In this document: positions 1,369 through 13,691 of the stretch, piece after piece
Numbering within the stretch: position 1 is the first letter of the stretch
How the letters are laid out: each line of letters opens with the position of its first letter
DNA from: a virus
Taxonomy: Duplodnaviria > Heunggongvirae > Uroviricota > Caudoviricetes
Virus record (IMG/VR): IMGVR_UViG_2734482780_000014
Coordinates: 1 to 13,691 of that record
Length of the DNA: 13,691 nucleotides
Strand: one strand, 5' to 3'
Made by a program: the position numbers and the translations under genes
The notes under the pieces: model-generated
Seen by the model: the letters and a program-made list of their open reading frames with translations, nothing else
Told to the model about the DNA's origin: nothing
Database searches by the model: none

Positions 1369-1444
1369 GCCGATATAGCTCAGTTGGTAGAGCAGCGCAT
1401 TCGTAATGCGAAGGTCGTAGGTTCGACTCCTATTATCGGCACCA
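1369..1444 (+). tRNA. thrW: tRNA-Thr (anticodon CGU), 76 nt with encoded CCA
   Basis: GCCGATATAGCTCAGTTGGTAGAGCAGCGCATTCGTAATGCGAAGGTCGTAGGTTCGACTCCTATTATCGGCACCA: cloverleaf with D-loop AGCTCAGTTGGTAGAGC, anticodon loop TTCGTAA, T-loop GGTTCGACTCC. Position immediately after proA fits thrW. Confidence 0.95.
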
Positions 1445-1458
1445 TTAAAATCAATAAG

Positions 1459-6738: not shown

Positions 6739-7413
6739 TTAGGCTTTGATTTTGTATCTTCTTGGTTTTCCTGAGAAAATCACTGTACCAATTATAGAGC
6801 AATTACCGTTGATCTTAATGTAAGGCTCAGGCCAGTTTGGGTTTAACGCTTTGAGATAACGCTGTGTCCCATCTTCTATCAACCTTTTGAAGGTGGTTTC
6901 ACCTGTATCGTGCATCAATGCAATAACGTCGTCACCGTGGCAGGCAGGTACTTCAGGATCGACAAAAATCATGTCTCCCGGGCGGTACTCATCAATCATT
7001 GAATCACCTATCACCCGCAAGATATAAGTCATTTCCCCACAGGGTACAGGGCAGGGATACGTTTCTGCTGTGCTCAAATCAACCTCAGAATATCCAACTT
7101 CTTTCCATGCTCCGGCCTGTACCCATGATATGACAGGGACTAATGTGATTTGTTTATTAGTGATTGAAACATCAGGTTTTTTTGTGATGTTCGTTGTCTG
7201 GTGTTCTTGATCGAGCCATCCGACAGGCAGGTCGAAACATTTTTCGATGTGTCGTGCCATGCTGTCACCGATATTTTTAGTAGCACCATCTCCCATAAAC
7301 CTGCTGGTCTGGGTTGGCTCGCGATCAATCATAGTGGCAAAGGAAGAATTCCCGCCAACACCATCTCTCAGTTTTCTGGCGTTAGACCGCCGGATGTCAT
7401 GGATTGTTTTCAT
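6739..7413 (-). CDS. CI-type prophage repressor with C-terminal S24 LexA-like peptidase domain, 224 aa
   Basis: C-terminal region resembles P22 C2 (..VIGDSM.. and LNPNWPEPYIKINGNCSIIG vs remembered LNPQYPMIEINGNCKIIG); divergent to a cro-like gene across an operator region. Confidence 0.9.
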   Translation of the reverse strand: MKTIHDIRRSNARKLRDGVGGNSSFATMIDREPTQTSRFMGDGATKNIGDSMARHIEKCFDLPVGWLDQEHQTTNITKKPDVSITNKQITLVPVISWVQAGAWKEVGYSEVDLSTAETYPCPVPCGEMTYILRVIGDSMIDEYRPGDMIFVDPEVPACHGDDVIALMHDTGETTFKRLIEDGTQRYLKALNPNWPEPYIKINGNCSIIGTVIFSGKPRRYKIKA

Positions 7414-8299: not shown

Positions 8300-8634
8300 A
8301 CAGTTTAACAACACACTACCGTCGCTCGCAACTTATTGCGCTTCCTGTACCGGGTGGAAAAGCGAAGGTGGAGTATTGCTATGCAGTGAATGTACCAGGT
8401 GACAGGGAAATTGTAACCCACAGCTTTGCAGAGTGGGCTGTGGGGGATTTCAACCGGCAGAAGGAGGCAGTCCTTTGCGACAAGTTAACCGCTGGTTCAA
8501 AGATCACTACGGAGTGCCCGTCAGAGTCATTCGTTGGGAGCCGGAAACACAACGGGTTATCTACCTCCGTGAAGGCTATGAGCATGAGTGCTTCAGCCCG
8601 CTCGAACAGTTTCGTCGTAAATTCAGGGAAATAG
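8296..8634 (+). CDS. hypothetical protein, 112 aa (possibly YmfM-like by size and position; see frameshift finding)
   Basis: ATG at 8296 overlaps the upstream stop; the C-terminal third is Ser-rich and low-complexity, while an alternative frame (8433-8654) reads more protein-like. Confidence 0.45.
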
Positions 8635-8643
8635 AGGTCGGTC

Positions 8644-8886
8644 ATGAGCACTAAATTAACCGGCTATGTATGGGATGGTTGCGCAGCGTCAGGCATGAAA
8701 TTATCCAGCGTGGCAATTATGGCCCGCTTGGCTGATTTCAGTAATGACGAAGGTGTGTGCTGGCCATCAATTGAAACCATTGCCCGCCAGATTGGCGCGG
8801 GGATGAGTACCGTCAGAACGGCTATCGCACGGCTGGAAGCAGAAGGCTGGTTAACGCGTAAGGCGCGTCGCCAGGGTACCGGGTGA
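8644..8886 (+). pseudogene. N-terminal winged-HTH fragment (80 aa) of a phage replication initiator (O-like), truncated
   Basis: ATG at 8644 with GAGGT upstream; translation has the HTH pattern typical of phage replication-initiator N-termini (recognised from memory, not aligned); the ORF stops after 80 aa and is followed by tail-fibre sequence. Confidence 0.55.
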
Positions 8887-8950
8887 TGACTCTCCGGGAG
8901 AAAACAAAAGCCAGACCGACTACTGGCAGGAGCTGAAAGAGGGCTTCTCC

Positions 8951-9166
8951 GTGGTTGTCATACTGAGTAACGGGCGTGATGAGCGCGGTCAGTTTGCCTC
9001 GTATGATGTGGTGGACGATGTCCGGCAGATGCTCTTTAAGGCCCTGCTGGGCTGGAACCCGGCTATTACAGAGGGTGGTGTTGTTGCGGCAACGACTAAA
9101 CCTGCAGGTGCGAATGAAACACGCCCACGAAATGTCGCTTTTAACTATATTGTGAGGGCTGCATAA
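8951..9166 (+). pseudogene. C-terminal fragment of a side tail fibre protein (variable part)
   Basis: Ends ...NETRPRNVAFNYIVRAA with stop overlapping the tfa ATG (TAATG) as in stf-tfa pairs; the frame is open only back to 8855, so the N-terminal bulk is missing. Confidence 0.6.
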
Positions 9167-9768
9167 TGAATAACGCAGAATTAAACAGTGAATTAATTGC
9201 CACTATGGCAGGAGAAATTACTGTTTATAACTTTGACGTCATGAGTCGGGAGTATATTTCAGCTTCAACTGAATATCTTGCTGTTGGTGTCGGCATTCCG
9301 GCATATTCCTGTTTAGATGCTCCAGGCACCTACAAAGCTGGTTATGCAATCTGCCGCTCTGCAGATTTTAACTCATGGGAATATGTACCAGACCATCGCG
9401 GTGAAATTGTCTTTAGCACCGAAACAGGAGAATCAAAAGAAATCACAGCACCGGGTGATTACCCTGATAATACAACCACTATCGCCCCGTTAACGCCATA
9501 CGATAAATGGGATGGTGAGAAATGGGTGACGGATACCGAGGCACAGCATAGCGCCGTAGTAGATGCAGCAGAAGCACAGCGCCAGTCGCTGATTGATACA
9601 GCAATGGCTTCTATCAGTCTGATTCAACTGAAATTACAGGCCGGACGGAACCTGACGCAGGCAGAAACCGCCCGACTTAACGCTGCGCTGGATTACATTG
9701 ACGCGGTGACGGCAACAGATACCAGCACCGCACCGGATGTCATCTGGCCTGAACTGCCGGAGGCGTAG
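9166..9768 (+). CDS. tfa: tail fibre assembly protein (Tfa), 200 aa
   Basis: C-terminus ...DYIDAVTATDTSTAPDVIWPELP matches the conserved Tfa C-terminal motif. Confidence 0.88.
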   Translation: MNNAELNSELIATMAGEITVYNFDVMSREYISASTEYLAVGVGIPAYSCLDAPGTYKAGYAICRSADFNSWEYVPDHRGEIVFSTETGESKEITAPGDYPDNTTTIAPLTPYDKWDGEKWVTDTEAQHSAVVDAAEAQRQSLIDTAMASISLIQLKLQAGRNLTQAETARLNAALDYIDAVTATDTSTAPDVIWPELPEA

Positions 9769-10171
9769 GCCATTCAATATCTGGCGCACTGGAAGTATCG
9801 ACCAGTTCCAGTGCGTCCAGATAATCCAGCCACAAATTATATTGCGCCAGTTCCTCACCTTTCAGACGACCAATCGCCGCTTTACCAGGCCATTGTTTAC
9901 TGTTCATGTATTCGTTGGCCTGATTAACTAATCGCTGTTTATTTGATTCAGCGATTGAGATTAATTCTTCGCTGGTAAGTGGTGGCGCATCCTGCCATGC
10001 TGGAAAACCATTTTTATCTGAACCAAGTATTTTACCATCAGGCCATGCAACTCCTGCGAACTCAGAATAAATAGTAAAGTTTATTTTCGTAGCGTTCTCA
10101 GGAATGGTTTGGCTATCTGGTGAAATATAAAATCCCGAATCAGAGGGATTAAAATAATATGTCTTTTCCAT
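9740..10171 (-). CDS. tfa: tail fibre assembly protein (alternate, opposite orientation), 143 aa
   Basis: C-terminus ...WLDYLDALELVDTSSAPDIEWPTPP; convergent 29-nt overlap with the plus-strand tfa, as in invertible tail-fibre segments. Confidence 0.88.
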   Translation of the reverse strand: MEKTYYFNPSDSGFYISPDSQTIPENATKINFTIYSEFAGVAWPDGKILGSDKNGFPAWQDAPPLTSEELISIAESNKQRLVNQANEYMNSKQWPGKAAIGRLKGEELAQYNLWLDYLDALELVDTSSAPDIEWPTPPAVQAR

Positions 10172-10173
10172 AG

Positions 10174-10572
10174 TTAATACCCCACAGCCATCCAGTAAAT
10201 TGAATTTGTTGTAGCAGAAGTGTAAGTAAATCTGATTTTAGTTCTGTTGGTACTTCCAATATCAAAGCCCACAGAACGGGCAGAAGGATCATTAGTTGAA
10301 ATAAGAGCGTTTACCGAACGACAAGCAGCAGGGAAAGCTACAGGTAATGTTATATCAACTGTTCCAACACTTCCTCCGGTTGGTGAGACAGAAAAACTCC
10401 CCCATTGAATAATCATCCCCCCAGGTAATTTCTGGTATCCATTGGCGGTCAATGAGTTACCAAAGCTGTTTATATCCGGTACCTGATTTTCTCCTGTCCC
10501 CACATTCCTCTTTGCCGCTTCTCCCAAACCAACGTTTATGAAAATGCAGAAATAACGAGCAAATGGCATCAT
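10174..10572 (-). pseudogene. alternate tail fibre C-terminal variable domain (inverted orientation), lacking the constant N-terminal part
   Basis: Immediately upstream of tfa' on the minus strand; the N-terminal about 18 codons read through the recombination site and pin leader. Confidence 0.6.
10519..10544. promoter_or_regulatory. Hin/Gin/Pin-type recombination site (hix/gix-like) TTCTCCCAAACC-AA-CGTTTATGAAAA
   Basis: About 20 of 26 positions match the remembered hixL consensus, including AAACC/GTTT half-site cores and AA centre; located just upstream of pin. Confidence 0.5.
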
Positions 10573-10598
10573 TCCTGCTTTTGTCAGGGAGATCTACC

Positions 10599-10790
10599 AT
10601 GCTTATTGGCTATGTACGTGTGTCAACAAATGACCAGAACACAGATCTACAACGTAATGCGCTGAACTGTGCAGGATGCGAGCTGATTTTTGAAGATAAG
10701 ATAAGCGGTACAAAGTCCGAGAGCCTAGGGCTGACACTGCTGTTCTTGATGCAAATTAAAGGATTTAATAGTGAGTTGTGGCCTTACTAA
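10599..10790 (+). pseudogene. pin: truncated DNA invertase (Pin/Gin/Hin serine recombinase); homology covers only about 42 N-terminal residues
   Basis: MLIGYVRVSTNDQNTDLQRNAL.CAGCE.IFEDK.SGT... is nearly identical to the e14 Pin N-terminus as remembered, then diverges (..SESLGLTLLF..) and stops at 10790; ATG at 10599 after AGGGAG. Confidence 0.85.
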
Positions 10791-10799
10791 TGTAAGGCC
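10780..10799. terminator. hairpin GGCCTTAC-TAAT-GTAAGGCC between the convergent pin' and GmrSD-like genes (possible bidirectional terminator)
   Basis: Perfect 8-bp stem; moderately T-rich only on the plus-strand side; sits where pin homology breaks down. Confidence 0.3.
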
Positions 10800-10823
10800 G
10801 CTATAATCATTTTATTAATTGCA

Positions 10824-12713
10824 TTAATCGTGTTTTGGCCATACTTTCAATGCAATTTCCCCCAACTTTTTACCCCGCTCCAGGATTTCACCTTCATCCC
10901 ATTTATCCTTAAGTATAAGTGGTATGTTCAGTCGTAGATTGGTGTGGACGATGAGAGCATCACGTTTTTTCAGAAATACAGCATTCTGAACAGAACGGTT
11001 TACGCTAAGGTTAAGCAAAGTTAGATTTCCCAACGTAGCTATCGCTTGTTGCCGTTTCCTTACCAGTAGCTGTTCAGGGGTAAGATCTGTTCCAGACAGA
11101 ACAATTTGGTTCAATACCGTTGCATCTGAATTTGTCACCATATGACCATTTTCGAGAGGCCAACAGGAATACCAACTTTGAGGCATAAGATGATCGATAT
11201 CGAGATTGGAAAGATTTGGAACATCAGGCTTCTCTGTCTTCACTTGGCGACAAAGTTCTCTTTCAAGTTCCGTTAACATTGAGCGCATTTTCGGTGCGTC
11301 GAGCCTGCCAGGATAAAGTGGAGCATTGATGCAAGCATTGAGAAATTCTGAGTCACCAGGCCAACGTGAGGCTTCGCCATTTAAGCTATTGAGGATATTA
11401 CGTAACTCAACACTGGAAATTTCCGTTTTAGACAAGTGCCGCAATACATTCATAAATACATTGTTGTAATTCTTTGGCGTCAGGCCACATACGGCTCTTC
11501 GTACTACGTAGGAGACAAGATCATTATACATGGCTGCTTTCTCACCATCGGCGATGTTAGCTATCGAAATGAACAAAGCAAGCGGATAAAGTGTCGTCAC
11601 ATCATAGGCTGCGATGCGATGTCCAAAGTGTGAGATGGGGGTTGTGCCAAAACCACCAACCAATTCTTTATATTGTGATGCATATTGTTTGAGGCGCTTT
11701 ACTTGCAGATCAGCTCGTTGTGAAGGCAAGTCCTTACTTACATAATCACGATACTCATTGTAAAGACGAGACAGATCAATTTCACGTTGCCTTTCTGATT
11801 GCAATGTCGCATGCACTAGCCACTCCATGCGTGGTTTATTAATACGTCCACGGCGTTGCCTTTCCGACCAGTATGTATCTTCAAAGCTCTTCCACTCATT
11901 TTCATATAATTCAATAGCATTAATATTTTCATGCTCAGCGCACATAAAGATGTAGTTGCGAATAAGATCCGTGGCATGAAGTTCCGCCCCTCGGCCATTT
12001 AATGTTTCAAAAATTATTTGGGCATCATCTTCAGCTTCGAGAAATATGCTTACCAGTTTCAGATCCGTCAAGACAGCCTCAATTAGTGCTACAGCATTTT
12101 CATGTGGTGAGTACTTTTCTATTTTAATCCATTTTATAAAGGCTTCAGTAAAAAACCATAATGCCTCTAGTGACGGCGGGTGGTTGAAATGTTTACGTAA
12201 CGTACCATGTTGCGTGAAGCTATCAGAAAATACATCACGGAGATCGTCAATGTTTTCAACATTAAAACTTTGAATAAAATGAGTTTGGTCTCGAAAAGTT
12301 GGCCACAGTTTGAAGCATTCTACCTTTTTATTTCGCATAGTTGCTTCGTTTGTATTTTTCAAGCAAGTCAATACTAACCCTTCCAAATCAGAAAGGCCTG
12401 TAGCACGCAATGATAATCGAATGGATGCCAGAATATATTGAAGAGTGGTTAAACGTTGCTGGCCGTCAATAATATGTATGGTATCTACACCTAACAAGCT
12501 GTTTTTGAGTTGAGGTTCCAGCACCACCGCGCCAAGGAAATGGGGAGTTGGTTTTGTTCCCAAAAGTCGGCTATGTGCTTTTTCGAAGATATCCTCCAGC
12601 AAAGCTGACCATTGGTTTTGTTGCGTCCATACGTAGGCACGTTGATAGAATGGAACACGATATTGTCGTTGATTTTGGAAAAGTTGCTGGATGGTTAGCG
12701 TTTCGGATTTCAT
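10824..12713 (-). CDS. GmrSD-family type IV restriction endonuclease-like protein (N-terminal DUF262, C-terminal DUF1524 His-Me finger), 629 aa
   Basis: N-terminal VPFYQRAYVW and IIDGQQR motifs; C-terminal DIDHLMPQSW nuclease motif; ATG at 12713 with AGGT upstream; AT-rich compared with proA. Confidence 0.8.
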   Translation of the reverse strand: MKSETLTIQQLFQNQRQYRVPFYQRAYVWTQQNQWSALLEDIFEKAHSRLLGTKPTPHFLGAVVLEPQLKNSLLGVDTIHIIDGQQRLTTLQYILASIRLSLRATGLSDLEGLVLTCLKNTNEATMRNKKVECFKLWPTFRDQTHFIQSFNVENIDDLRDVFSDSFTQHGTLRKHFNHPPSLEALWFFTEAFIKWIKIEKYSPHENAVALIEAVLTDLKLVSIFLEAEDDAQIIFETLNGRGAELHATDLIRNYIFMCAEHENINAIELYENEWKSFEDTYWSERQRRGRINKPRMEWLVHATLQSERQREIDLSRLYNEYRDYVSKDLPSQRADLQVKRLKQYASQYKELVGGFGTTPISHFGHRIAAYDVTTLYPLALFISIANIADGEKAAMYNDLVSYVVRRAVCGLTPKNYNNVFMNVLRHLSKTEISSVELRNILNSLNGEASRWPGDSEFLNACINAPLYPGRLDAPKMRSMLTELERELCRQVKTEKPDVPNLSNLDIDHLMPQSWYSCWPLENGHMVTNSDATVLNQIVLSGTDLTPEQLLVRKRQQAIATLGNLTLLNLSVNRSVQNAVFLKKRDALIVHTNLRLNIPLILKDKWDEGEILERGKKLGEIALKVWPKHD

Positions 12714-13298
12714 TGTTTACCTATAAGTGACATTCCACAAGAGTAAGAAATTCATCTGAGTCAGAATAATCATTTTTATGTAGTCATGATACAGTGTATT
12801 TGTTGCTGGTGAAGTAAAAACGAGAAATCCCGCTTTTGAATGCTGACGTGCTACGGCTTCATTGGATATTCTCTTTTGTCTGTTCTCCATTGCGTCGGTG
12901 TTTTGTCGAGATTGTTAGCACACTGTTGCTGCTGTTTTTTTATCCAAGCGCTGCTAAATCATTGTAGATGGCACTATCGGGTATTGAAGCTGCAGACATG
13001 TCGTATACAATAGTCAGCTGCGACTGGCTGGTGAACTTCCGATAGTGCTAGTATTGAATTATGTCAAGCCGTTATCGATTTTACGTATTTTTTGTATGAG
13101 AGGATTTGCACCTCCTCCCACCGCTCCTCCATGACTTTACGCCACTGTCTCTAGGGCTGCTAAGTGCCAGGAACGGACATTGGTGGTATGCAGGATCAGA
13201 GGGGAATAAAAAACTTATTATATTGATTAAGATGGGGCTATTCTTGGCGACTTAAGCCGATATGATACAGATCAAGTGTGCTCTTTTAGGGTTCCATA

Positions 13299-13691
13299 TT
13301 GATTAACAGAAAATTAATTGTAGAGTTAATCGTATATTTCATGAGAGATGAATTGATTCGTGGATTTTCGAAGTGGGGGCGTCGGGTAAAGACTGACCTG
13401 ACACAGATGGATGAATCTTTCCCAATAATGCCGATTTTTAATGAGCACATCAATTCTATTTTCAAAGTGTATATTCTATTCAATGAAAAATATCACATCA
13501 CAAAAGCTTTAAAAGCAAAAGAATTCATAATAAACTTCATTGGAGAGAGAGAGGATTATATTGATGATGAATACATTATCGCAGAACTAAAAAATACACA
13601 AACAGGTTTGAGTATAAACAAAAAAACCATTCCTACATCAGCGCTTGAGAAAATATCCGATTTTTACAGAATAAAAGAATACCTATTTTAG
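13299..13691 (+). CDS. hypothetical protein, 130 aa (116 aa if it starts at ATG 13341); very AT-rich, divergent from the GmrSD-like gene
   Basis: ORF ending with TAG exactly at the window end; TTG at 13299 follows AGGG by 7 nt, ATG at 13341 has no SD; no recognisable motif. Confidence 0.5.
   Translation: MINRKLIVELIVYFMRDELIRGFSKWGRRVKTDLTQMDESFPIMPIFNEHINSIFKVYILFNEKYHITKALKAKEFIINFIGEREDYIDDEYIIAELKNTQTGLSINKKTIPTSALEKISDFYRIKEYLF

What the first reader, a model, noticed from the sequence alone, without database searches (positions are those of the whole stretch)
10599..12713. GmrSD-like type IV restriction gene occupying the place of the invertase 3' end
Pin-like homology stops after about 42 residues near 10735. 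An 8-bp-stem hairpin (10780-10799) sits at the break, followed by a convergent AT-rich 629-aa DUF262-DUF1524 gene. In e14 the invertase is followed by the type IV restriction gene mcrA (from memory), so this looks like a defence-cargo slot at the prophage end where a different type IV enzyme replaced the neighbour and destroyed the invertase.
Basis: partly seen in the sequence, partly recalled or inferred. Interest (0 to 1): 0.6.

Follow-up and report, generated by a model that had tools for sequence, protein, structure and literature searches.

The report
Known GmrSD restriction gene beside truncated invertase
The gene is a near-identical copy of GmrSD, a well-studied E. coli enzyme that cuts the sugar-modified DNA of T4-like phages; it sits in a prophage "defence cargo" slot where it cut off a tail-fibre invertase gene long ago, so the finding is correct but ordinary.

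Summary
Window 10824-12713 (- strand) encodes an intact 629-aa GmrSD_N/GmrSD_C protein. It is 96.8% identical, without gaps, to the characterised Eco94GmrSD and CT596 GmrSD, and 93.3% identical to the UTI89 enzyme. All known motifs are kept. Left of it is a Pin-type invertase stump: clean homology to 10720, degenerate to about 10749, then none. The 10780-10799 hairpin is real but belongs to the gmrSD 3' flank, not to the break.

The window is a decayed e14-like prophage at proA-thrW. gmrSD is its second-to-last gene before attR. The same pin'::gmrSD junction is in 299 of 305 complete E. coli genomes that match a probe spanning it, at thrW, ssrA and argW. It was therefore one old event, not a local one.

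Relatives with intact pinE carry other defence genes in this slot: McrA, PD-T4-3 and a type II R-M system. This supports the cargo-slot reading. Replacement of mcrA in particular is not shown.

One addition: the stump keeps the crossover site and probably the enhancer. UTI89 and IHE3034 have identical flanks but differ by a clean 1.94-kb inversion, so the switch still flips in relatives, probably through an invertase acting in trans. In this window the left site is deleted.

Novelty: already known. Interest: low.

The parts
10824..12713 (-). gmrSD: an intact single-chain type IV (modification-dependent) restriction endonuclease of 629 aa. It has an N-terminal DUF262/GmrS domain with DGQQR at residues 83-87 and a C-terminal DUF1524/GmrD His-Me (HNH) nuclease with D507-H508-N522.
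   Evidence: Pfam GmrSD_N and GmrSD_C. PADLOC mREase_IV PDLC03655, 1478 bits over 1-629 of 629. 96.8% identical to Eco94GmrSD and CT596 GmrSD and 93.3% to the UTI89 enzyme, with no gaps. The exact protein is on record on 177 contigs.
10599..10749 (+). pin': the 5' stump (about 41-50 codons) of a Pin/Gin/Hin-type serine DNA invertase gene. The catalytic-serine region MLIGYVRVSTNDQ is present. Helix B, helix E and the DNA-binding domain are absent. The open frame runs on into unrelated sequence to 10790.
   Evidence: Pfam Resolvase over residues 3-45 only. Alignment with five intact pinE genes. NCBI's PGAP pipeline annotates the same stump as a pseudogene in other genomes. A 1-bp indel separates the window from UTI89 and GPT24 in the stump tail.
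10519..10544 (+). The right crossover site of the invertible tail-fibre segment, TTCTCCCAAACC-AA-CGTTTATGAAAA. It is the only copy in the window; the inverted left copy has been deleted.
   Evidence: A pattern search finds one site in the window against 0 expected. The same site, plus an inverted left copy 1.85-1.93 kb away, is present in L001, L002, L004 (K-12 e14), L005 and L006. It contains the inverted repeat reported for the e14 P segment (PMC12529663).
10618..10685 (.). Inferred Fis-dependent recombinational enhancer inside the retained pin 5' end. This is assigned by position and homology only and was not tested.
   Evidence: In hin the 65-bp enhancer lies about 100 bp from a hix site and includes ATTTA and TAATG tracts (PMC3798978). 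The window has GATCTACAACGTAATGCG at the matching distance from the crossover site. The whole stretch lies left of the break.
10780..10799 (.). Stem-loop with an 8-bp stem, 24 nt downstream of the gmrSD stop codon. It is part of the gmrSD 3' flank (10750-10823), which travels with the gene.
   Evidence: Sequence. Folding z-scores of -3.9 and -5.0. It is conserved in UTI89 and in GPT24, where most of gmrSD itself has been replaced. The terminator scan did not call it.
12714..13065 (-). gmrSD upstream (promoter) region. It is shared, at only about 72% identity, with the UTI89-type allele. Homology between the two allele types ends at about 13065.
   Evidence: BLAST against L003 and L006 ends at 13062 and 13065. 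Identity by region. A sigma-70-like match lies at 12813-12786 on the - strand (consensus match only).
13299..13691 (+). Remnant of a 300-aa AT-rich gene of unknown function (phrog_30874). It is the last gene before attR. The window lacks 538 bp that are present in strain AH65.
   Evidence: Window 13318 and 13314 join L002 8847 and 9386. There are no Pfam, PADLOC or NCBIfam hits; the only match is a PHROG family of unknown function.
9166..10572 (.). What is left of the invertible tail-fibre segment: tfa (9166-9768, +), tfa (9740-10171, -) and the gp53-like tail-fibre C-terminal part (10174-10572, -).
   Evidence: Pfam Caudo_TAP twice and Gp53-like_C. Homologous segments occur in L001, L002 and L004-L006, in either orientation.
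1399..1454 (+). attL core (the 3' part of thrW) of the prophage that carries gmrSD. The matching attR repeat lies about 490 bp beyond the window end in syntenic genomes.
   Evidence: tRNA-Thr at 1369-1444. The 56-bp repeat is at L001 15660-15715, L002 10250-10304 and L003 18817-18872.

Best explanation
The 629-aa gene is a working allele of the prototype GmrSD, a type IV modification-dependent restriction endonuclease carried by a prophage. By homology to Eco94GmrSD and CT596 GmrSD, the N-terminal DUF262 (ParB/Srx-like, DGQQR) domain binds or hydrolyses NTP and senses the DNA. The C-terminal DUF1524 His-Me finger (D507-H508-N522) cuts DNA that carries 5-hydroxymethylcytosine or glucosyl-hmC. 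This protects the lysogen against T-even phages unless the phage injects a matching inhibitor such as T4 IPI*.

The gene has its own upstream region and a 3' hairpin. It lies in the variable cargo region between the tail-fibre invertase and attR of an e14-like prophage at thrW. One old rearrangement joined its 3' flank to about codon 45 of pin. That junction has since spread with the tail-fibre/pin 5' module among prophages at several att sites.

The pin stump cannot encode a recombinase, but it keeps the crossover site and, by position, the enhancer. In relatives that still have both crossover sites the tail-fibre segment therefore still inverts, most likely through another Pin-family invertase acting in trans.

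In this window the prophage is a roughly 12-kb remnant without the left crossover site. Here the switch is frozen, and gmrSD is probably the only functional part of the region examined (about 8,880 to the window end); the integrase and early genes to its left were not assessed.

Shown here: the domain and motif content, the identities, the synteny, the shared junction, and the clean inversion between near-identical genomes. Inferred: enzymatic activity and phage range of this allele, enhancer function, and which invertase acts in trans.
For: - Domains and subfamily. The top PADLOC hit is the full-length mREase_IV model (1478 bits), while SspE models reach 51 bits or less.
- Identity: 609 of 629 residues match Eco94GmrSD with no gaps, and the mutationally defined residues are conserved. 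Biochemistry and phage assays of Eco94, CT596 and UT enzymes are in PMC4437046.
- Purifying selection: dN/dS is 0.12-0.16. The exact protein is on 177 contigs.
- Prophage ends: attL at thrW and attR about 490 bp past the window end.
- Shared junction: 299 of 305 genomes matching the junction-spanning probe (window 10700-11300) cover at least 80% of it. It occurs at thrW, ssrA and argW.
- Slot content in relatives with intact pinE: McrA, PD-T4-3 and a type II R-M system.
- Inversion after truncation: an in-silico flipped UTI89 junction is found at 99.9-100% identity over 1000 bp in 23 of the 24 genomes with a full-length match (the other is 96.2%), against 79 for the native junction. IHE3034 and UTI89 have 100% identical flanks of 4.6 and 6.5 kb and an exact 1.94-kb inversion between the two crossover sites.
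- Precedent for trans inversion: PinQ, PinR and PinE all invert the e14 P segment (PMC12529663).
Against: - No activity data exist for this allele. It differs from Eco94GmrSD at 20 residues, including K280T, and the E278A/K280A double mutant of Eco94GmrSD had low or no activity.
- The purified UTI89 enzyme was inactive in vitro, so high identity does not guarantee the same substrate range.
- The enhancer assignment rests on position and on a short motif resemblance to hin only.
- Some genomes with the flipped orientation (PMV-1, APEC O1) show no second pinE-like 3' sequence on the chromosome at DNA level. The trans-acting invertase is therefore unidentified. It could be a distant paralogue, plasmid-borne, or no longer present.
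- The inversion could reflect very few events.
Confidence: 0.85

Rival explanations
1. The gene is intact but is an inactive or differently specific GmrSD allele. For example, it may act on other hypermodified bases, or be silenced in the lysogen. It would then not restrict glc-hmC phages in this strain.
For: K280T falls in the ExEx4ExK stretch whose double mutant is impaired. The UT enzyme, 93% identical, was inactive in vitro and does not restrict T4. The N-terminal 130 codons are highly divergent between alleles, with dS 0.72.
Against: The full-length frame is under purifying selection (dN/dS 0.12-0.16). All catalytic residues are kept. The protein is closest to the active Eco94 and CT596 enzymes, and the exact sequence is widespread.
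Confidence: 0.15
2. The pin stump is plain debris with no cis role. The two orientations seen next to it come from homologous exchange of whole tail-fibre segments between co-resident prophages, or from rare RecA or microhomology events, not from site-specific inversion in trans.
For: Tail-fibre segments are mosaic: the window and L001 segments are 89% identical while the right flank is 99.9% identical. Some flipped genomes have no detectable second pinE-like gene.
Against: IHE3034 and UTI89 differ by an exact inversion whose ends fall in the 26-bp crossover sites. The flanks are 100% identical and the inverted 1.94 kb is 99.9% identical. The shared inverted repeat is only about 14-20 bp, too short for efficient RecA recombination (inference from established knowledge). 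Trans inversion of the homologous e14 segment by PinQ and PinR has been shown experimentally.
Confidence: 0.2
3. GmrSD here is one component of a larger multi-gene system of the BREX/BrxU, Ssp/SspE or Dnd-linked type, rather than a stand-alone enzyme.
For: GmrSD-family domains do occur as BrxU and SspE. There are weak partial PADLOC hits to SspE models (51 bits or less, N-terminal about 100 residues only).
Against: There are no BREX, Ssp or Dnd genes in the window or in the syntenic loci. The only neighbour is a remnant of an unknown 300-aa gene, and that gene is absent from the UTI89-type module. Eco94GmrSD works alone when cloned.
Confidence: 0.03

Closest known systems
Eco94GmrSD (E. coli STEC_94C) and EcoCT596 GmrSD, the prototype type IV restriction enzymes for glc-5hmC and 5hmC DNA (He et al. 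2015, PMC4437046; Bair and Black 2007 as cited there)
   Same: Same length (629 aa) and collinear with no gaps. 96.8% identical. Same DGQQR, ExEx4E and D-H-N residues. Also prophage-borne and placed immediately after the tail-fibre genes. [quoted passage not shown]
   Different: There are 20 substitutions, 11 of them in residues 1-260, including K280T. The host prophage is a decayed e14-like remnant at thrW rather than an SfII-like 41.5-kb prophage. IPI* sensitivity and phage range of this allele are unknown.
UTI89 GmrSD (UTI89_C2960, the 'UT enzyme')
   Same: 93.3% identical. It has the identical pin'::gmrSD junction and 3' hairpin.
   Different: It sits in a Mu-like-tail prophage at ssrA and is followed by dinI', PD-T4-3 and an REase-like gene. 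The N-terminal 130 codons and the upstream region are strongly diverged. It is reported to be IPI*-insensitive and not to restrict T4.
e14 pinE-mcrA-attR (E. coli K-12)
   Same: The architecture is the same: an invertible tail-fibre segment, a Pin invertase, then a type IV restriction gene as the last cargo before attR. The crossover site is identical.
   Different: pinE is intact. McrA is an unrelated HNH enzyme, co-oriented with pin. The att site is icd rather than thrW. No mcrA sequence is present in the window.
Prophages with intact pinE followed by PD-T4-3 (thrW: LH10-b-1, O157:H7 7636, LR-33; ssrA: H1827/12)
   Same: They share the att sites and, for LR-33, the same left arm (98.8% identical). 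A defence gene convergent with pin sits about 60 nt downstream of it.
   Different: The invertase is complete. The cargo is a GIY-YIG PD-T4-3 homologue (with or without AraC, or a type II R-M system) instead of GmrSD.
Trans inversion of the e14 P segment by PinQ and PinR (NAR 2025, PMC12529663)
   Same: The crossover repeat is the same (CCTTCTCCCAAACCAA), and a tail-fibre segment is flipped by an invertase encoded elsewhere. This matches the inversion seen next to a dead pin in IHE3034 versus UTI89.
   Different: In e14 the local pinE is intact. Here the local gene is a stump, so inversion would depend wholly on trans factors. This was not tested experimentally.

Membership tests
GmrSD type IV restriction endonucleases (prototype clade) | N-terminal DUF262/GmrS domain with the near-invariant DGQQR motif | tested here: met
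   Pfam PF03235, E=8e-34, residues 8-256. DGQQR at 83-87. The motif definition is from PMC4619093.
GmrSD type IV restriction endonucleases (prototype clade) | C-terminal DUF1524/GmrD His-Me (HNH) nuclease with the catalytic D507-H508-N522 residues | tested here: met
   Pfam PF07510, E=2e-18, residues 451-619. D507, H508, N522, D505 and N528 are all present. The mutational evidence is in PMC4437046.
GmrSD type IV restriction endonucleases (prototype clade) | Single chain that is collinear with, and closely similar to, a biochemically characterised member | tested here: met
   629 aa, no gaps, 96.8% identical to Eco94GmrSD and CT596 GmrSD. Full-length match to PADLOC mREase_IV PDLC03655, 1478 bits.
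GmrSD type IV restriction endonucleases (prototype clade) | NTP-stimulated cleavage of 5hmC or glc-5hmC DNA but not unmodified DNA; restriction of T-even phages | not testable with these tools
   This needs enzyme and plating assays. It is shown for Eco94 and CT596 only.
BrxU / SspE (GmrSD-family effectors of BREX and Ssp systems) | Encoded within a BREX or Ssp/Dnd gene cluster; SspE- or BrxU-type sequence | tested here: not met
   No such genes are in the window or in syntenic loci. SspE models match only the first 100 residues or so, at 51 bits or less.
Din-family serine DNA invertases (Pin/Gin/Cin/Hin) | Complete catalytic domain (Ser10, helix B, helix E) plus a C-terminal helix-turn-helix DNA-binding domain, about 185 aa in all | tested here: not met
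   Only residues 3-45 match the Resolvase profile (2-52 of 145). Homology to five intact pinE genes ends between 10720 and 10749. The Ser10 region is present, but helix B (residues 47-51) and everything after it is missing, so this is a pseudogene.
Din-family invertible-segment switch | Two inverted 26-bp crossover sites flanking the segment, plus a Fis enhancer in cis | tested here: not met
   The window has only the right site, 10519-10544. Relatives L001, L002, L005 and L006 have both. The enhancer is inferred by position only. In relatives the switch has demonstrably inverted.
McrA (e14 type IV enzyme) | Sequence homology to EcoKMcrA | tested here: not met
   BLAST of window 8601-13691 against the K-12 e14 locus matches only the tfa and pin 5' parts. 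McrA hits a different PADLOC model, PDLC03656.

The most novel reading that the evidence does not exclude
The pin 5' stump may be kept by selection rather than by chance. It would supply the crossover site and the Fis enhancer, so that invertases from other prophages can still flip the tail-fibre segment. The inverted e14 segment makes a protein that blocks T2 adsorption (PMC12529663). If the same holds here, the GmrSD module and the adjacent trans-operated switch would form a two-layer anti-T-even defence that moves between prophages as one unit.
Probability: 0.12. Interest if true: 0.5.

Novelty: already known. Interest (0 to 1): 0.18.

Why it matters
It matters little for discovery. The enzyme family, its biochemistry, its prophage location next to tail-fibre genes, and even the neighbouring 'phage invertase' are already in the literature. 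What this work adds is an annotation and some context.

- The many E. coli 'DUF262 domain-containing protein' entries at this junction can be named GmrSD.
- The region between the tail-fibre invertase and att in e14-like and SfII/Mu-like-tail prophages is a recurrent defence-cargo slot. It holds McrA, PD-T4-3, a type II R-M system or GmrSD.
- A gene-dead invertase stump does not mean a dead switch. Near-identical ST95-type genomes differ by a clean inversion beside it.

That last point is a cheap, testable case of an invertible element that depends wholly on trans-acting recombinases.

Tried and rejected
- I looked for attR and for a second crossover site inside the window and found neither. 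The attR repeat lies beyond the window end, and the left site is deleted.
- I looked for an ancestral 'intact pin + gmrSD' arrangement. Every one of the 299 full matches to the junction probe carries the junction, and the partial match examined (GPT24) has lost most of gmrSD.
- A tblastn search of sequenced phages (INPHARED) gave only distant hits (30% identity or less for the near-full-length matches, at most 39% over short N-terminal stretches) in Gram-positive and uncultured phages. No isolated coliphage carries this gene.
- I looked for mcrA remnants and found none.
- A sequence search of solved structures gave only remote DUF262 entries (E=1e-6), so no structure work was pursued.
- The terminator scan did not call the hairpin.
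- The anchor-plus-pin-3' query, used to count second invertase genes in UTI89-type genomes, gave mixed results: 1-3 places per chromosome. It cannot see distant paralogues such as PinQ (38% aa identity to PinE), so the trans-acting invertase stays unidentified.
- Literature searches for the exact enhancer coordinates in pin found only the general hin statement.
- Pfam, PADLOC and NCBIfam searches on the 300-aa neighbour and on the GPT24 445-aa replacement gene gave nothing beyond PHROG families of unknown function and weak metallopeptidase-like hints.
- I considered positive selection as the cause of N-terminal GmrSD divergence and rejected it. dN/dS is about 0.15 there. The signal is a very high dS (0.72), which points to recombination with a divergent allele.
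Full report
**What the window is**

Bases 1-1254 encode the C-terminal part of proA. thrW (tRNA-Thr CGU) lies at 1369-1444, and a tyrosine integrase at 1459-2622 on the - strand. After these come e14-like early genes: yfdQ/R-like genes, the ymfK LexA-like repressor at 6739-7413, and ymfT and ymfL.

Homology to intact relatives stops at about 8879-8881. From 9056 onward only the C-terminal end of a tail fibre, two tail-fibre assembly genes and a gp53-like tail-fibre C-terminal part remain. No capsid, terminase or tail-body genes were identified between these joints. The element is therefore a decayed prophage of about 12 kb at the proA-thrW site.

The 56-bp thrW repeat that marks attR lies about 490 bp beyond the window end in syntenic genomes (L001, L002, L003).

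**Checking the observation**

- The 629-aa ORF at 10824-12713 (-) matches Pfam GmrSD_N (DUF262) and GmrSD_C (DUF1524) well above threshold.
- The + strand ORF from 10599 matches the Resolvase profile only over residues 3-45. Against five intact pinE genes the DNA is identical or near-identical up to 10720, degenerate to about 10749, and unrelated after that.
- The 8-bp-stem hairpin at 10780-10799 folds far better than shuffled sequence. It sits 24 nt after the gmrSD stop codon and 30-60 bp from the break. It has no U-tract and was not called as a terminator. It stays with the gmrSD 3' flank in other genomes, so it is a feature of the gene's 3' end, not of the breakpoint.
- GC content is 0.37-0.44 across the gene.
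- K-12 e14 does read pinE, mcrA, attR.

**What the gene is**

It is not just GmrSD-like. The protein aligns without gaps to the sequences printed in Supplementary Fig. S1 of He et al. 2015 (PMC4437046).

| Compared with | Identity |
|---|---|
| Eco94GmrSD | 609 of 629 residues (96.8%) |
| Single-chain CT596 GmrSD | 96.8% |
| UTI89 'UT' enzyme | 93.3% |

DGQQR (83-87), E271, E273, E278, D505, D507, H508, N522 and N528 are all conserved. K280 is T in the window.

PADLOC's full-length type IV model PDLC03655 scores 1478 bits, whereas SspE models score 51 bits or less over the first 100 residues or so. No BREX, Ssp or Dnd genes are nearby. The exact protein is on record on 177 contigs.

Between alleles dN/dS is 0.12-0.16, so the frame is maintained. 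Divergence is very uneven: dS is 0.72 in codons 1-130 and 0.08 in codons 451-629, and the upstream region is only 72% identical. This points to recombination with divergent 5' alleles rather than to positive selection.

**How it most likely works**

The following is by homology and was not tested here. Eco94GmrSD is an ATP-stimulated endonuclease that requires Mg2+ or Mn2+. It cuts hmC and glc-hmC DNA but not unmodified DNA, and D507A, H508A and N522A variants are dead. It restricts T4 delta-ip1 more than 10^6-fold, while wild-type T4 is protected by the injected inhibitor IPI*. The UT allele is IPI*-insensitive but has a different phage range and was inactive in vitro.

Machnicka et al. 2015 assign DUF262 to the ParB/Srx fold with DGQQR as the likely NTP site, and DUF1524 to the HNH nucleases.

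The window allele should therefore protect its host against T-even-type phages. Its inhibitor sensitivity and exact range cannot be predicted, and K280T is a caveat, because the E278A/K280A double mutant was impaired.

**The junction is old and shared**

A 601-bp probe across the junction finds 305 complete E. coli genomes. In 299 of them the match covers at least 80% of the probe, at 97-100% identity. The junction occurs in different prophages and at different att sites:

- thrW: YZ22PE67, AH65 and IAL7250;
- ssrA: UTI89, in a prophage with a Mu-like baseplate and tail;
- argW: GPT24-02.

In GPT24-02 the pin stump, the hairpin and the last 59 bp of gmrSD remain, but the rest of the gene has been replaced by a 445-aa gene of unknown function. 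That is a second replacement in the same place. No genome examined shows intact pin next to gmrSD.

[quoted passage not shown] He et al. also noted that the gene lies just after the tail-fibre genes. The context is therefore published, although the papers I searched do not mention that the invertase is truncated.

**The cargo slot**

Relatives with an intact pinE carry other defence genes in the same position.

| Locus | Site | pin | Cargo after pin |
|---|---|---|---|
| LH10-b-1, O157:H7 7636 | thrW | intact | convergent GIY-YIG gene about 60 nt after pinE |
| LR-33 | thrW | intact | same gene type, interrupted by IS3; left arm 98.8% identical to the window |
| H1827/12 | ssrA | intact | same gene type (PD-T4-3, 464 bits), then a cytosine methyltransferase and a type II REase |
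| UTI89 | ssrA | stump | gmrSD, dinI', PD-T4-3, an REase-like gene |
| K-12 e14 | icd | intact | McrA |

Homology between cargo variants resumes only about 200 bp before attR. The 'defence-cargo slot at the prophage end' reading is therefore supported. Replacement of mcrA in particular is not: there is no mcrA remnant, and the nearest relatives carry PD-T4-3 there.

**What remains of the switch**

The stump keeps the 26-bp crossover site at 10519-10544. This site contains the inverted repeat reported for the e14 P segment.

In hin the 65-bp Fis enhancer lies about 100 bp from a crossover site. The equivalent stretch here, about 10618-10685, lies wholly inside the retained fragment. This is an inference from position. 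It also draws on my recollection of the classical Hin, Gin and Cin work, which places the enhancer within the 5' end of the invertase gene.

Loci with the stump still have both crossover sites. I built the junction that inversion of the UTI89 segment would create and searched for it. It matches over its full length in 24 genomes, at 99.9-100% identity over 1000 bp in 23 of them, including IHE3034, PMV-1 and APEC O1. The native junction is in 79 genomes.

A direct comparison of IHE3034 with UTI89 shows 100% identity over 4,587 and 6,514 bp of flank, and an exact inversion of 1.94 kb (99.9% identical) between the two sites. In both strains pin is a 41-codon pseudogene. Inversion has therefore occurred since the truncation.

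The most economical cause is another Pin-family invertase acting in trans. This has been shown for PinQ and PinR on the e14 segment. I could not identify that enzyme: some flipped genomes show no second pinE-like 3' sequence at DNA level, and that test cannot see distant paralogues.

In the window itself the left site is gone, so its segment is frozen.

**Verdict**

However, the object is a close allele of a well-characterised enzyme in a context that has already been noted. I rate it as already known and of low interest. The only mildly new points are:

- the single-origin pin'::gmrSD junction, shared by about 300 genomes;
- the variety of defence genes in that slot;
- the evidence that the adjacent tail-fibre switch outlives its own invertase gene.

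Noticed in passing
window 8879-9166: There are two deletion joints. A helix-turn-helix (replication-region) gene is cut at about 8879. A short stretch follows with a weak Phage_tail_terminator match (E=0.0014). From about 9056 the C-terminal end of a tail-fibre gene begins (…RPRNVAFNYIVRAA*). All capsid, terminase and tail-body genes are gone.
   Followed up: partly
window 13299-13691; L002 8861-9763: The last gene before attR is a remnant. Strain AH65 has a 300-aa AT-rich ORF there (phrog_30874, unknown function, no Pfam, PADLOC or NCBIfam hit). The window lacks an internal 538 bp of it. The gene accompanies the window-type gmrSD allele but not the UTI89-type allele.
   Followed up: partly
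L005 6001-7540 (GPT24-02, argW prophage): gmrSD has been replaced by a 445-aa hypothetical gene with faint metallopeptidase-like matches (Lit, PD-Lambda-2_B, Peptidase_M48; E of about 1e-3 to 4e-2). The pin stump, the hairpin and 59 bp of the gmrSD 3' end are left behind. It may be an uncharacterised defence gene.
   Followed up: partly
L006 12065-14218 (UTI89, between gmrSD and ssrA): Further defence-type cargo lies in the same slot: a PD-T4-3 GIY-YIG gene (453 bits) and a 262-aa protein with a DpnII-MboI REase domain (Pfam 9.5e-49; PADLOC Aga_Helical-REase 1e-26), plus a decayed dinI.
   Followed up: partly
window 12324-12713 (gmrSD codons 1-130) and 12714-13065: Synonymous divergence between the window and UTI89 or IAL7250 alleles is about 9 times higher in the first 130 codons (dS 0.72) than in the C-terminal domain (0.08). 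The upstream region is only 72% identical. The alleles are mosaics, with the 5' end and promoter exchanged as a unit.
   Followed up: yes
window about 10730-10733: The window's pin stump has one more base (GAGAGCC) than UTI89 and GPT24-02 (GAGA-CC). The reading frame of the stump tail therefore differs between lineages, which fits a lack of selection on a protein product.
   Followed up: yes
window 11875-11877 (GmrSD residue 280): Eco94, CT596 and UT enzymes have K280, while the window allele has T280. K280 is part of the ExEx4ExK stretch, whose E278A/K280A double mutant had little or no activity.
   Followed up: no
phages collection: No sequenced enterobacterial phage in the INPHARED set carries a close GmrSD homologue, although the gene is in about 300 complete E. 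coli genomes inside prophages. He et al. also could not induce the UTI89 prophage. The carriers may mostly be defective or rarely induced.
   Followed up: no
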